A stretch of DNA of 55,332 nucleotides, taken from an uncultured Anaeromyxobacteraceae bacterium (lineage in GTDB: Bacteria; Myxococcota_A; UBA9042; DTJE01). The DNA is taken from positions 1-55,332 of the forward strand of contig CAZNJW010000005.1 in assembly GCA_964573455.1 (NCBI GenBank), read 5' to 3'. Positions 1 to 3,115 of the stretch are shown here, piece after piece. The notes under the pieces are model-generated. The model was not told where the DNA came from. It saw only the letters and a list, made by a program, of their open reading frames with translations, and did no database searches. Within the stretch, counting starts at the first letter, position 1. Each line of letters begins with the position of its first letter. Both the position numbers and the translations under genes were made by a program.

Positions 1-304
1 ATGCGAGCGGTCCGCCCACCATGACCGGGACGTCGGGCGTTATATCGTGAAGGAATGCAGCCAGTTCCTTGAAGGTTCTGTATTCGTTGACCACGGCGCT
101 GATGCCGATGACGTCAGGTTTACGCTCGGCGATAGTGTTCTTCATCAGATCGATCGAGGCGGGGTCGCTGCCGATATGCAGGATTTTCGGTTCGTGCCCT
201 GCCTCGCGCAGTGCTGCTGCAAGGTACATCGCGCCGAGAGGGGCAACCTTCGACTTTTCATTCCTTGAAGGATTCCAACACTTTATTATCAGTATGTCAG
301 CCAT
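1..304 (-). CDS. B12-binding-domain radical SAM protein, N-terminal part (runs off the window edge; not in the ORF track)
   Basis: Manual translation from ATG at 304: MADILIIKCWNPSRNEKSKVAPLGAMYLAAALREAGHEPKILHIG...KPDVIGISAVVNEYRTFKELAAFLHDITPDVPVMVGGPLA. PLGxxYLAAxL, PDVIGIS and VxxGGP are hallmarks of the cobalamin-binding domain of B12-dependent radical SAM enzymes. Confidence 0.85.
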   Translation of the reverse strand, partial: MADILIIKCWNPSRNEKSKVAPLGAMYLAAALREAGHEPKILHIGSDPASIDLMKNTIAERKPDVIGISAVVNEYRTFKELAAFLHDITPDVPVMVGGPLA

Positions 305-1458: not shown

Positions 1459-2661
1459 CTAGGGCAGATCCTCCACCGCATACCGGACATAGACACCGTC
1501 AATATCGGGCCCGTTCGATATCGGATCGGACACGAAGGCCCGTCCGGTGTCGGGATTCAGGACAGTACATGCAGGGATGAGTCTGACGAATCGGAATCCA
1601 TGGCGCGTCATCGCCGCGGCGTCGGGGTCGGCCTGATCGAGCTGATCCAGATCGAACGCGTCGCCCCCGGCCGTCTCTGTATTGAACGGATCCGCGTTGG
1701 GGTCAACGTCCTGGTTGAAGATGACCGGCGTCACCCCACCAAAACCGTCCCAGTCCGCCGGGTCGGTGGAGTACGACGTCTCGTCTTCGGCGGTGAAGTC
1801 GAAGGGGAAGCTCACCCAGGTGATTCCATCGCGAGAAACCTGAACGACGACCTGATCCATGAACACTCCGCCTTCGCCGTAGTTGAATGGATTCTCGAAC
1901 ACCACCAGTTCGGCACCCGGTCCATTACCGATCGAGTGACCGTCCAGCGCAAGAACAAGGAAGGAGCTGTTGACCGCCGGAATCGCGTACACGTCGGTGC
2001 CACCTGTCGATGCCCCGCCTCCACGCACACCGTTGACCGCGTTCTGGGGATCTCCAGGGCCTTCTCCCGAGGCTCCCGGCGCCTCGACAACGAGATCCAT
2101 CGGTCGCGTGTCGGTCGGAAGTGCTTCGGGGGCGGGCGGTTCAACGCTGGTCAGACCTGTCCAGCCAAAACCTCCGCAACCGGAATTCGCCGGGTCGGAC
2201 GCGTCCGCCGCCTGCACGGCGATGGCTTCGTCGCTGGTTGCCTTGTCCCAGGCTGTGTTGCAGAAGTAGGTCGTTCCGTCTTTCGTCGTCCAGTCGAATC
2301 GGCTGAAAAGGCCGGGGCTGAACTGGTTAGCGTCCGAATTGCGCGCGATCGCCCATCCTGGCGACCCAGCCGAGGATCCGTTGTCCCAGATCAGAATCTC
2401 GAAGGATGACAGGGAGCCGTCGTAAGTCTGCCTCCATAGTCCGGATGTGATGTCGTGTGCCGTGCCCCACGCGTCGGTCCACGCGCCGGCGAGCGCGATT
2501 CCGACGGGTTTGTCCAGATTGGTGGCTTCGATGACTTCCTGGATCACGTCCTGGCCTCCCAGGTCGTCGCTCTCGCTGCTGCCGCATCCGAAAGATGCCG
2601 GCAAGATGGTGGTCAGCGCGGTAAGTACCCAGATCATCACACTTTTGTTCGGTCTGCTCAT
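1459..2661 (-). CDS. Uncharacterised two-domain lipoprotein downstream of a cobalamin riboswitch
   Basis: GGAG RBS before ATG 2661; signal peptide with lipobox SFGC. N-domain ...FSRFDWT...YFCNT...SGCGGFGWT; Pro-rich linker; C-domain with NGVRGGG, VFENPF, GGDAFDL and GPDIDGV motifs, which recalls Leptospira LIC_13355-type surface lipoproteins (recollection, not searched). Confidence 0.8.
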   Translation of the reverse strand: MSRPNKSVMIWVLTALTTILPASFGCGSSESDDLGGQDVIQEVIEATNLDKPVGIALAGAWTDAWGTAHDITSGLWRQTYDGSLSSFEILIWDNGSSAGSPGWAIARNSDANQFSPGLFSRFDWTTKDGTTYFCNTAWDKATSDEAIAVQAADASDPANSGCGGFGWTGLTSVEPPAPEALPTDTRPMDLVVEAPGASGEGPGDPQNAVNGVRGGGASTGGTDVYAIPAVNSSFLVLALDGHSIGNGPGAELVVFENPFNYGEGGVFMDQVVVQVSRDGITWVSFPFDFTAEDETSYSTDPADWDGFGGVTPVIFNQDVDPNADPFNTETAGGDAFDLDQLDQADPDAAAMTRHGFRFVRLIPACTVLNPDTGRAFVSDPISNGPDIDGVYVRYAVEDLP

Positions 2662-2667
2662 GGTTGC

Positions 2668-2690
2668 TCCATTTCCCCGCGGGGAATGGA
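2668..2690 (-). promoter_or_regulatory. RBS-sequestering hairpin (riboswitch expression platform)
   Basis: Minus strand TCCATTCCCCGCGGGGAAATGGA: the 5' TCC pairs with GGA of the GGAG Shine-Dalgarno just upstream of ATG 2661. Confidence 0.6.
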
Positions 2691-2787
2691 AACAGGGGGT
2701 CCGGCCCCCGACCGCAATGTTGTTGGAAAACAATGGTCGGATTGGCGTGACCTCGTCCGTTTCCGCTCGAAACGACTGGCACCAAAT

Positions 2788-2929
2788 GGACGCGGGCAGT
2801 GTCCTGACTCCCGGGTATGGCCTCGCCTGGCCCTTCCGGACAAGTTCATGTCCGTGGCTCGCCAGGGTTGTTCCCGGATACAGTTGCGGCGGCAGTACCG
2901 GCATTGAACCGGTTTCCTGCCCCGTGTCC
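2788..2929 (-). ncRNA. Cobalamin (AdoCbl/B12) riboswitch aptamer
   Basis: Minus strand reads GGACACGGGGCAGGAAACCGGTTCAATGCCGGTACTGCCGCCGCAACTGTA...GAGCCACGG...CCGGAAGGG...GAGTCAGGACACTGCCCGCGTCC. It contains the GGAA-CCGG..CCGG hairpin, CCGCAACTGT, GCCAC/GGAAG and B12-box (AGTCAGGANAC) elements. The ends pair as P1. Confidence 0.9.
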
Positions 2930-3115
2930 CCGGACGTAATCTAGCCTTCCGTCGAAGGCAGGTCAACCCGGATCTCGGAATCCCGTGTTCCTGTCCCTTT
3001 CCGCCTGCCCTGGCGCTGGTACCCAATATCCGAAAACGGTCGGCACCCCGCCACTATGGGGATTTGCCTCCACTTCTGCTATGATTCGGCAGTCGATTCG
3101 AGGTCGGTGTCCGGG

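What the first reader, a model, noticed from the sequence alone, without database searches (positions are those of the whole stretch)
1459..2929. Cobalamin riboswitch controls an uncharacterised two-domain lipoprotein: candidate new B12-capture protein
Seen: a clear B12 aptamer (2788-2929), a structured leader and a hairpin burying the GGAG RBS, followed by one lipoprotein gene. That gene is apparently monocistronic because the next gene is convergent. The protein has no BtuB, BtuF, BtuCD or ECF motifs. It has a Trp-rich N-domain with two Cys and an acidic C-domain (GGDAFDL, GPDIDGV). Known: B12 riboswitches mark cobamide uptake, salvage or B12-independent isozymes, and several surface B12-binding lipoproteins (e.g. 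Bacteroides BtuG) were found in such loci. Inference: a surface or periplasmic cobamide-scavenging or remodelling protein of a family not yet tied to B12. P1 also seems to run straight into the AGGAAA element, suggesting an aptamer lacking P2.
Basis: partly seen in the sequence, partly recalled or inferred. Interest (0 to 1): 0.82.

Follow-up and report, generated by a model that had tools for sequence, protein, structure and literature searches.

The report
Riboswitch-controlled vitamin B12 capture lipoprotein
A vitamin-B12-sensing RNA switch controls a single two-domain lipoprotein in a small, probably B12-dependent myxobacterium; the same switch-plus-protein pairing recurs across the phylum, often in one operon with the B12 outer-membrane transporter, so two "unknown" protein families (LIC13354-like and LIC_13355) are very probably part of B12 scavenging.

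Summary
Rfam finds a cobalamin riboswitch at 2777-2941 (minus strand, 78.5 bits) with P2 missing. It is followed by one 400-aa lipoprotein gene (2661-1459) that converges on a nuclease gene.

The protein fuses a Trp-rich, two-Cys beta-barrel (LIC13354-like) to a LIC_13355-family domain.

- **Relatives elsewhere:** 41 of 80 loci carry the riboswitch, always upstream on the same strand.
- **Even sample of 151 Myxococcota genomes:** 51 of 61 assessable N-domain loci carry it. That is 22% of the sample's 230 cobalamin riboswitches, and in 16 genomes it is the only one.
- **Operon partners in relatives:** a BtuB-like receptor, a BtuFCD-like ABC importer, or a DUF4465 (BtuJ) B12-binding domain.
- **This genome:** several B12-binding enzymes but no CbiC or CobS. 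Its only other riboswitch drives a btuB-propeller-btuFCD operon.

Profile comparison links the C-domain remotely to the B12-binding domain of Bacteroides BtuH (94% probability, N-terminal half). Family-invariant Asn/Phe/Asp align with BtuH2 contact residues N399/F401/E406. The N-domain matches no known family or structure.

Most likely it is a B12-repressed cobamide-capture lipoprotein feeding BtuB. Binding itself is untested. I found no paper tying these families to B12.

The parts
2938..2966 (-). Promoter-like TTGACC-17 nt-TAGATT just 5' of the aptamer
   Evidence: consensus scan only. The -10 region is conserved in the orthologous leaders L084 and L086.
2777..2941 (-). Cobalamin riboswitch aptamer (RF00174), P2-less, with the P6 extension present
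   Evidence: 78.5 bits, E 1e-17, model positions 1-189. 23 consensus positions (P2) are replaced by 1 nt. One search gives the same hit in the whole genome.
2755..2776 (-). Hairpin GUCGUUUCGAGCGGAAACGGAC directly after P1, a candidate P13 whose loop could kiss L5 (inferred)
   Evidence: Fold. Invariant in three orthologous leaders. The L5-L13 pairing is my inference, not tested.
2684..2710 (-). Terminator-like stem-loop GGGGGCCGGACCCCC followed by UGUUUCC
   Evidence: Conserved in L084 and L086, with a loop change only.
2667..2689 (-). Hairpin CCAUUCCCCGCGGGGAAAUGG overlapping the first GG of the GGAG Shine-Dalgarno sequence (2670-2667)
   Evidence: In L086 the loop is enlarged (GCAAAAAG) while the stem is kept.
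1459..2661 (-). Lipoprotein gene, 400 aa (P0001), stop codon included
   Evidence: Homologues start at the same Met.
2584..2661 (-). Signal peptide and lipobox (…LPASFG-C26)
   Evidence: Cys26 is nearly invariant in the alignment. The -3 residue is atypical (Ser), whereas relatives have L-A-G/A-C.
2146..2508 (-). N-domain (residues ~52-172): Trp-rich beta-barrel module with two invariant Cys (C134, C162); LIC13354-like
   Evidence: NF047669 matches at E 1e-5 to 1e-6, below its cut-off. Alignment A3. Model pLDDT 90.4. No PDB or Pfam match.
1462..2112 (-). C-domain (residues 184-400): LIC_13355-family domain, remote BtuH-like. Invariant E256-N257-x-F259 and D269; also GGDxFDL and GxDIDG
   Evidence: NF033170 scores 137.7 bits against a cut-off of 120. 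Invariant columns. hhalign to the BtuH family gives 93.8% probability.

Best explanation
**Model.** The gene encodes a lipid-anchored envelope protein, probably in the outer membrane. It captures cobamides (vitamin B12 and analogues) outside the cytoplasm and passes them to the BtuB-like TonB-dependent receptor encoded elsewhere in the genome.

**Regulation.** When intracellular cobamide is plentiful it binds the P2-less cobalamin riboswitch in the 5' leader. The downstream platform then shuts the gene off. That platform holds a terminator-like hairpin and a hairpin overlapping the Shine-Dalgarno sequence. When B12 is scarce the lipoprotein is made.

**Shown here:**
- The riboswitch is real.
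- The gene is monocistronic and encodes a lipoprotein.
- The protein has two domains.
- The riboswitch association is conserved across the phylum.
- Relatives share operons with B12 transport genes.
- The C-domain is remotely homologous to the BtuH B12-binding domain, with three contact residues conserved.

**Inferred:**
- The protein binds corrinoids. The C-domain would bind in the BtuH manner; the N-barrel would be a second binder or an adaptor.
- The protein is surface or outer-membrane located.
- It hands cobamide to BtuB.
- The exact switching mechanism.
For: **1. The switch.** RF00174 scores 78.5 bits. The whole leader is almost invariant between three orthologous loci, although their proteins are only 82% and 54% identical.

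**2. Association, first sample.** RF00174 lies on the same strand upstream in 41 of 80 loci encoding C-domain relatives. No riboswitch hit lies anywhere else in those ~490 kb. Of the N-then-C loci, 22 carry it and 4 do not: two Leptospiraceae loci, one with reversed gene order, and one whose upstream DNA is cut by a contig end. It is present at 7 of 8 further metagenome loci, including N-only proteins.

**3. Association, even sample.** In 151 Myxococcota genomes there are 230 riboswitches in 142 genomes, and the N-domain occurs in 61 genomes.
- 51 N-domain loci have the riboswitch 150-1000 nt upstream. That is 84% of assessable loci, and 94% in genomes that have any riboswitch.
- These loci account for 22% of all cobalamin riboswitches in the sample.
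- In 16 genomes this is the only riboswitch.

**4. Operon partners.**
- L089 and L095: switch, N-N-C lipoprotein, TonB receptor, propeller.
- L030: N, C, TonB receptor. L014: switch, NN, C, Peripla_BP_2, ABC_tran, FecCD.
- L094: C, Peripla_BP_2.
- L082: switch, C-like, DUF4465, TonB receptor.
- L070 and L080: the C-like domain is fused to a DUF4465 domain that matches solved B12-binding BtuJ structures.

**5. This genome.** Its only other riboswitch heads an operon of TonB receptor (best NCBIfam hit: B12 receptor), propeller, BtuF-like, BtuC-like and BtuD-like genes. The receptor and propeller are orthologues (45% and 38% identity) of those that follow the lipoprotein in L089.

**6. Likely auxotrophy.** There are 8-9 B12-binding-domain genes, no CbiC and no CobS.

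**7. BtuH link.**
- The only PDB sequence hit of the broad C-like profile is 7BIZ (BtuH2).
- hhalign: A5 vs A7 99.95%; A7 vs the BtuH family 94.7% (E 6e-8); A9 vs the BtuH family 93.8%.
- Invariant N257, F259 and D269 align with BtuH2 N399, F401 and E406. Those residues form the metal and corrin contacts described in PMC13616437 section 5.2.
Against:
- **The BtuH link is remote.** It covers only the first ~100 residues of the domain and needs an intermediate profile. The direct comparison (A5 vs the BtuH family) gives 37% probability.
- **The C-terminal halves do not align**.
- **Foldseek did not list 7BIZ** among its top 50 matches. It gave only weak discoidin-like and avidin-like similarities.
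- **Many relatives lack the switch.** About half of the C-domain-only relatives have none, as do all Leptospiraceae loci, and seven N-domain loci sit in genomes with no cobalamin riboswitch at all.
- **A different role is published.** Leptospira LIC_13355 is reported as a laminin/plasminogen-binding adhesin (PMC11891782).
- **The lipobox is atypical** (SFGC) and the cellular location is not established.
- **The genome is 89% complete**, so the absence of cob genes is not certain.
Confidence: 0.7

Rival explanations
1. It is an accessory of B12 uptake that does not itself bind cobamide. It could be a docking or lid partner of the BtuB-like receptor. It could also release B12 from carrier proteins of other organisms, which fits the predatory habit of many Myxococcota.
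For: The operon and riboswitch links show a B12-uptake role, not ligand binding. The C-like domain accompanies two different partner modules: the N-barrel in Myxococcota and the proven binder DUF4465 in Bacteroidota and Burkholderiales. That is what one expects of an adaptor. Foldseek sees only discoidin/CBM-like similarity.
Against: The family-invariant Asn/Phe/Asp align with BtuH2 residues that contact the corrin and the metal site. No catalytic motif or enzyme family matches. C-only and N-only proteins each occur alone behind a riboswitch.
Confidence: 0.15
2. It is a general adhesin or matrix-binding surface protein, as published for Leptospira LIC_13355. B12 would be only a regulatory cue unrelated to the protein's activity.
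For: PMC11891782 reports that recombinant LIC_13355 binds laminin, plasminogen and endothelial cells. The Leptospiraceae loci have no riboswitch. The predicted fold resembles discoidin-type binding domains.
Against: That binding was measured on refolded recombinant protein. It does not explain the conserved riboswitch, the operons with TonB receptors and BtuFCD-like importers, or the fusions to DUF4465. In this genome the whole detectable B12 regulon is this gene plus the btuB operon.
Confidence: 0.05
3. It binds or imports a different ligand that is co-regulated with B12, such as cobalt, cobinamide-type precursors or another tetrapyrrole, rather than complete cobamides.
For: The riboswitch reports cobamide status, not the ligand of the regulated protein. 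The acidic, Asp-rich conserved motifs could be metal sites.
Against: The genome lacks CbiC and CobS, so precursors or cobalt would be of little use. Partner receptors score best against B12-receptor models. The conserved triad matches the BtuH cobalamin site.
Confidence: 0.07

Closest known systems
BtuH (BtuH1 BT1488, BtuH2 BT1956 / PDB 7BIZ, H-domain of BtuGH) of Bacteroides thetaiotaomicron
   Same: It is a lipoprotein encoded in riboswitch-controlled B12 uptake loci and often sits next to btuB. The first ~100 residues of its B12-binding domain align with the C-domain superfamily (hhalign 94%). BtuH2 N399/F401/E406 match the invariant N257/F259/D269.
   Different: Similarity is detectable only through an intermediate profile and only in the N-terminal half. 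The other BtuH contact residues (Y475, H476, Y510, D522, W577, S582, E584) cannot be mapped. There are no PKD or propeller domains; the partner is instead a LIC13354-like barrel. BtuH homologues have been reported only in gut Bacteroidetes and three Firmicutes (PMC8941943). Binding is not shown here.
BtuG, BtuJ (DUF4465) and BtuK surface B12-binding lipoproteins of Bacteroides
   Same: Same proposed role: B12-repressed extracytoplasmic capture proteins that feed BtuB. The C-like domain is fused to, or adjacent to, DUF4465 in L070, L080 and L082.
   Different: No sequence or profile similarity: Pfam finds nothing and hhalign against DUF4465 gives 1%. There is no propeller. The predicted folds differ.
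Leptospira LIC13354 (exoprotein) and LIC_13355 (lipoprotein), NCBIfam NF047669 / NF033170
   Same: The C-domain is a member of NF033170 (137.7 bits). The N-domain is homologous to part of NF047669. In Leptospiraceae the two are adjacent genes in the same N-then-C order (L033, L040).
   Different: The Leptospiraceae loci in the sample have no riboswitch, and the two riboswitches reported for L. interrogans precede btuB and LIC20135 (PMC3953431). LIC_13355 is described only as an adhesin (PMC11891782). Here the two are fused and B12-controlled.
E. coli btuB and other class-I (AdoCbl-type) cobalamin riboswitches
   Same: The conserved core and the P6 extension match RF00174. It sits in the 5' leader of a B12-acquisition gene and has a platform near the ribosome-binding site.
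   Different: P2 is absent. The platform holds a terminator-like hairpin as well as a Shine-Dalgarno-overlapping hairpin. Ligand response is untested.

Membership tests
Cobalamin riboswitch (Rfam RF00174) | Covariance-model score above the curated gathering score, covering the full-length core | tested here: met
   78.5 bits against 31.5, model positions 1-189
Cobalamin riboswitch (Rfam RF00174) | P2 helix between P1 and P3 | tested here: not met
   23 consensus positions are replaced by 1 nt. This is a variant, not an exclusion: the model still scores far above threshold.
Cobalamin riboswitch (Rfam RF00174) | Cobamide-dependent repression of the downstream gene | not testable with these tools
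   Needs a reporter assay or in-line probing.
LIC_13355 family lipoprotein (NCBIfam NF033170) | HMM score above the curated cut-off | tested here: met
   137.7 bits against 120, residues 178-393
LIC13354 family exoprotein (NCBIfam NF047669) | HMM score above the curated cut-off | tested here: not met
   25.9-28.8 bits against 130. Only residues ~107-164 match. It is a homologous module, not a member by NCBI's threshold.
Bacterial lipoprotein | Signal peptide ending in a lipobox with an invariant Cys | tested here: met
   MSRPNKSVMIWVLTALTTILPASFG-C26. The Cys column is conserved in at least 90% of homologues. The -3 residue is atypical.
BtuH B12-binding domain | Homology to the C-terminal globular domain of BT1956 (7BIZ) | tested here: inconclusive
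   The superfamily profile against the BtuH family gives 93.8-94.7% probability over ~100 columns. The direct comparison gives 37%. The C-terminal half does not align. Foldseek's top 50 matches lack 7BIZ.
BtuH B12-binding domain | Conserved metal-site and corrin-contact residues (N399, F401, E406, D522, S582, E584, Y475, H476, Y510, W577) | tested here: inconclusive
   N399, F401 and E406 align with the invariant N257, F259 and D269. The others could not be mapped.
BtuH B12-binding domain | Direct cobalamin binding | not testable with these tools
   Needs purified protein.
BtuJ / DUF4465 (PF14717) | Pfam match or profile similarity | tested here: not met
   No Pfam hit. hhalign probability 1%.
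BtuG / BtuK (seven-bladed propeller lipoproteins) | Beta-propeller fold | tested here: not met
   The model shows a barrel plus a beta-sandwich. There are no Pfam or PDB sequence hits. The single low-TM Foldseek match to the BtuB1-BtuG1 entry 8BLW chain B (TM 0.17-0.24, rmsd 23 A) is not meaningful.
BtuF / Peripla_BP_2 | Periplasmic binding protein fold or Pfam match | tested here: not met
   No Pfam hit.

The most novel reading that the evidence does not exclude
The LIC13354-type barrel is a previously unrecognised cobamide-binding fold, used in 1-5 tandem copies as a surface B12 reservoir. The module 'riboswitch, N-barrel(s), BtuH-like C-domain' would then be the main accessory of B12 uptake across Myxococcota, a non-Bacteroidota counterpart of the BtuG/H/J relay. 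By extension, the Leptospira 'adhesins' LIC13354 and LIC_13355 would really be cobamide-capture proteins.
Probability: 0.35. Interest if true: 0.8.

Novelty: new variant of a known kind. Interest (0 to 1): 0.7.

Why it matters
**Gap in current knowledge.** B12 is made by few microbes and needed by most. How cells capture it outside the cytoplasm is understood in detail only for gut Bacteroides (BtuG/H/J/K).

**What this locus adds:**
- It gives a concrete, testable function to two families that NCBI names only after Leptospira locus tags, and whose one studied member is described as an adhesin.
- It extends the BtuH superfamily far beyond Bacteroidota.
- It points to a new small barrel domain as a candidate corrinoid binder. 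About 1,450 clusters of that domain exist at 50% identity.

**Scale in Myxococcota.** About a fifth of all cobalamin riboswitches in the phylum sample sit in front of this module. It is therefore a major, unannotated part of the phylum's B12 regulon, and relevant to B12 cross-feeding in soils, sediments and waters.

**Possible applications.** Small, stable B12-binding domains are also useful for B12 capture and sensing.

Tried and rejected
- **Mixed alignment for locus search.** The search for related loci with the mixed N+C alignment A1 failed because it had no conserved stretch. I repeated it with A2.
- **Sequence and family searches.**
  - PDB sequence searches found nothing for the protein, for profile A2 or for the N-domain profile.
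  - Pfam found nothing for the protein or for any of the 22 N-domains.
- **C-domain as a divergent DUF4465.** Rejected: hhalign probability 1%.
- **N and C as duplicated versions of one domain.** Rejected: 0.1%.
- **Foldseek on both models.** Only weak matches appeared: discoidin/CBM32-like for the C-domain and avidin/streptavidin-like for the N-domain (TM ~0.4, E at least 0.001 and 0.16). I take these as fold-class hints, not homology.
- **C-terminal half of the C-domain against BtuH.** The best local match was FRFVRLIPAC against IDFIKIQCGV, which is not significant.
- **Chance association of the riboswitch.** Rejected by the 80-locus and 151-genome counts.
- **Literature.** Searches for any paper linking LIC13354, LIC_13355 or Myxococcota lipoproteins to B12 riboswitches found none.
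- **Structure coordinates.** They are not available to scripts, so pocket analysis and docking were not possible.
Full report
**1. What is in the window**

- **Riboswitch.** Infernal against Rfam 15 finds one family in the 55-kb window. It is a cobalamin riboswitch at 2777-2941 on the minus strand (78.5 bits, gathering score 31.5, E 1e-17).
- **P2 is missing.** The alignment spans the whole model, but 23 consensus positions between P1 and the AGGAAA/P3 element are replaced by one nucleotide. The P6 extension is present.
- **Promoter.** A promoter-like TTGACC-17-TAGATT lies just upstream (2966-2938).
- **Leader elements**, between the aptamer and the start codon at 2661:
  - a hairpin directly after P1 (2776-2755);
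  - a terminator-like GGGGGCCGGACCCCC plus UGUUUCC (2710-2693);
  - a hairpin CCAUUCCCCGCGGGGAAAUGG (2689-2669) that includes the first two G of the GGAG Shine-Dalgarno sequence.
- **Leader conservation.** The whole leader is almost invariant in the two closest orthologous loci, although their proteins are only 82% and 54% identical. Where the leader does differ, hairpins are kept with changed sequence. The platform is therefore under selection. Whether it acts on transcription, translation or both is inference.

**2. The gene**

- **Gene.** The ORF 2661-1459 encodes 400 aa. Its signal peptide ends in a Cys that is conserved in homologues.
- **Monocistronic.** It converges on an Endonuclease_NS gene (211-1443) with 15 nt between the stops.
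- **Family matches.** Pfam and PDB sequence searches find nothing. NCBIfam places residues 178-393 in the LIC_13355 family (137.7 bits, above the cut-off). It matches residues 107-164 weakly to the LIC13354 family.
- **N-domain.** Alignments show it is a ~115-residue module with invariant G59, N108, W124, C134, A146, G161 and C162. It occurs in 1-5 tandem copies in relatives.
- **C-domain.** Its invariant motifs are E256-N257-x-F259, F267-x-D269, S276-x-D278, A331-G-G-D334-x-x-D337 and G384-x-D-I-D-G389.
- **Predicted structure.** AlphaFold2 gives a confident model (pLDDT 86.8, pTM 0.84; N-domain alone 90.4). It shows an eight-stranded barrel followed by a beta-sandwich. Foldseek against the PDB gives only weak fold-class resemblances: avidin/streptavidin for N and discoidin/CBM32 for C.

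**3. Is the riboswitch link more than a one-off?**

*Related loci from species genomes.* A scan of one genome per species returned 80 loci encoding C-domain relatives.
- RF00174 was found in 41 of them. It was always on the coding strand and always upstream, and never elsewhere in ~490 kb.
- I searched the six-frame translations with my own N- and C-domain profiles. Twenty-six loci have an N-domain followed by a C-domain, and 22 of them carry the riboswitch.
  - The four exceptions are two Leptospiraceae loci, one locus with reversed gene order, and one whose upstream DNA is cut off by a contig end.
- About half of the C-only loci carry it.

*Metagenome loci.* Seven of eight further loci carry it, including two proteins made only of N-repeats.

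*Even sample of the phylum.* I then took 151 Myxococcota genomes drawn evenly.
- There are 230 cobalamin riboswitches in 142 genomes, mostly one or two per genome.
- The N-domain occurs in 61 genomes.
- 51 N-domain loci have the riboswitch 150-1000 nt upstream on the same strand.
- Ten lack it, seven of them in genomes with no cobalamin riboswitch at all. Three sit at contig ends and cannot be judged.
- This module therefore accounts for about 22% of the phylum sample's cobalamin riboswitches. In 16 genomes it is the only one.

**4. Genomic partners**

*In relatives:*

| Locus | Gene order |
|---|---|
| L089, L095 | riboswitch, N-N-C lipoprotein, TonB-dependent receptor, propeller protein |
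| L030 | N, C, TonB receptor |
| L014 | riboswitch, NN, C, periplasmic binding protein, ABC ATPase, FecCD permease |
| L094 | C, periplasmic binding protein |
| L082 (Burkholderiales) | riboswitch, C-like PEP-CTERM protein, DUF4465 protein, TonB receptor |
| L070, L080 (Bacteroidota) | C-like domain and DUF4465 in one polypeptide |

DUF4465 is an experimentally established B12-binding family (BtuJ; PMC13398666). The L070 and L080 DUF4465 parts match solved BtuJ-type structures.

*In the window's own genome (2.64 Mb, 89% complete):*
- There are only two cobalamin riboswitches.
- The other one heads an operon of TonB receptor, propeller, BtuF-like, BtuC-like and BtuD-like genes. The receptor scores best against B12-receptor models.
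- The receptor and propeller are orthologues of the genes that follow the lipoprotein in L089 (45% and 38% identity). One operon in a relative is thus split here into two riboswitch units.
- The genome has 8-9 B12-binding-domain genes, including a radical-SAM gene at the window's start. It has no CbiC and no CobS. That points to dependence on imported complete cobamides.

**5. Relation to known B12 binders**

- **Negative comparisons.** The C-domain is not DUF4465 (hhalign 1%), and N and C are unrelated to each other.
- **Lead from earlier notes.** Earlier notes of this scan proposed that PEP-CTERM proteins like those of L079 and L082 are BtuH-like. I tested this here.
- **PDB hit.** A profile of the broad C-like family (A7) has a single PDB hit, 7BIZ (BtuH2), at E 0.11.
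- **Building a BtuH profile.** I recovered the BtuH2 domain from gut metagenome loci and collected its relatives.
- **Profile comparisons.**

| Comparison | Probability | E-value |
|---|---|---|
| Window's family (A5) vs broad family (A7) | 99.95% | 1.6e-37 |
| Broad family (A7) vs BtuH family (A8) | 94.7% | 5.7e-8 |
| Merged profile, window's domain as master (A9), vs A8 | 93.8% | 1.7e-7 |
| A5 vs A8 directly | 37% | 3.6e-4 |

- **Aligned contact residues.** The aligned ~100 columns place invariant N257, F259 and D269 on BtuH2 N399, F401 and E406. The review PMC13616437 lists these among the Ca/Na-site and corrin-stacking residues.
- **Limits of the link.** The C-terminal halves do not align. 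I therefore call the C-domain a remote BtuH-like domain, with membership inconclusive.
- **N-domain.** It has no detectable relative in Pfam or the PDB. It comprises about 1,450 clusters at 50% identity.

**6. Interpretation**

- **Best reading (about 0.7).** This is a B12-repressed, lipid-anchored cobamide-capture protein working with the BtuB-like receptor. It would be analogous to the Bacteroides BtuG/H/J relay.
- **Rivals.**
  - A non-binding accessory or adaptor, about 0.15.
  - A different co-regulated ligand, about 0.07.
  - An adhesin with B12 as a mere cue, about 0.05. This follows the one experimental paper on Leptospira LIC_13355 (PMC11891782).
- **Leptospira.** The Leptospiraceae loci in the sample have the two genes adjacent but no riboswitch. 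The two riboswitches reported for L. interrogans precede btuB and LIC20135, not these genes (PMC3953431).

**7. Novelty**

- **Literature.** Full-text searches found no paper connecting these families, or any Myxococcota lipoprotein, to B12 riboswitches.
- **Reported range of BtuH.** BtuH homologues have been reported only in gut Bacteroidetes and three Firmicutes (PMC8941943).
- **Classification.** The kind of system is known: a riboswitch-controlled extracytoplasmic B12 binder. The families, the N-barrel and the phylum-wide module are new. I therefore class it as a new variant of a known kind.

**8. Limits**

There are no binding, localisation or expression data. 

Noticed in passing
G000 contig C3:15917-17098 (locus L096:6917-8098, minus strand): A 394-aa NHL/beta-propeller protein sits directly after the riboswitch-controlled BtuB-like receptor and before the btuFCD-like genes. 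Its orthologue (38% identity) follows the receptor in L089 and L095. It may be a Myxococcota analogue of the propeller lipoprotein BtuG. Pfam detects only one weak NHL repeat.
   Followed up: partly
window 2-304 (-), and L086:8484-13162: The window starts inside a B12-binding radical-SAM gene. In the orthologous locus L086, three such paralogues lie in tandem just beyond the convergent nuclease. B12-dependent enzymes therefore sit two genes from the B12-controlled lipoprotein.
   Followed up: partly
Genomes G061, G096, G106, G116, G141, G146 (family f34): One large-genome Myxococcota family (5.7-10 Mb in these six genomes) contains several genomes with no detectable cobalamin riboswitch. These six still keep single-copy N-domain and C-domain genes, sometimes divergently arranged. 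Their regulation must differ.
   Followed up: no
L079:2122-6106 (Sedimentisphaerales): The gene order is riboswitch, C-like PEP-CTERM protein, two unknown proteins, then a type-IV-pilin-like DUF1559 protein. This is the same pairing that earlier notes of this scan describe for Planctomycetota-type B12 operons.
   Followed up: partly
L036:4159-7050 and L061:4753-7566: Very large proteins (938-964 aa) directly follow the N/C genes on the same strand. The L036 protein has four MopE-type putative metal-binding motifs. The L061 protein has no Pfam match.
   Followed up: no
L010:4734-5993, L019:3717-5213, L060:1382-2803, L051:1307-2686: Recurrent 420-500-aa proteins with no Pfam match lie inside the same riboswitch-headed gene strings, before or after the C-domain gene. 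They may be further unannotated components.
   Followed up: no
window 2640-2960 (-) compared with L084 and L086: The 5' leader is about 95% identical between loci whose lipoproteins are only 54% identical. A short variable stretch (window 2737-2716) keeps a hairpin with a different sequence: UUGUU/AACAA here against CCUUU/AAAGG in L086.
   Followed up: partly
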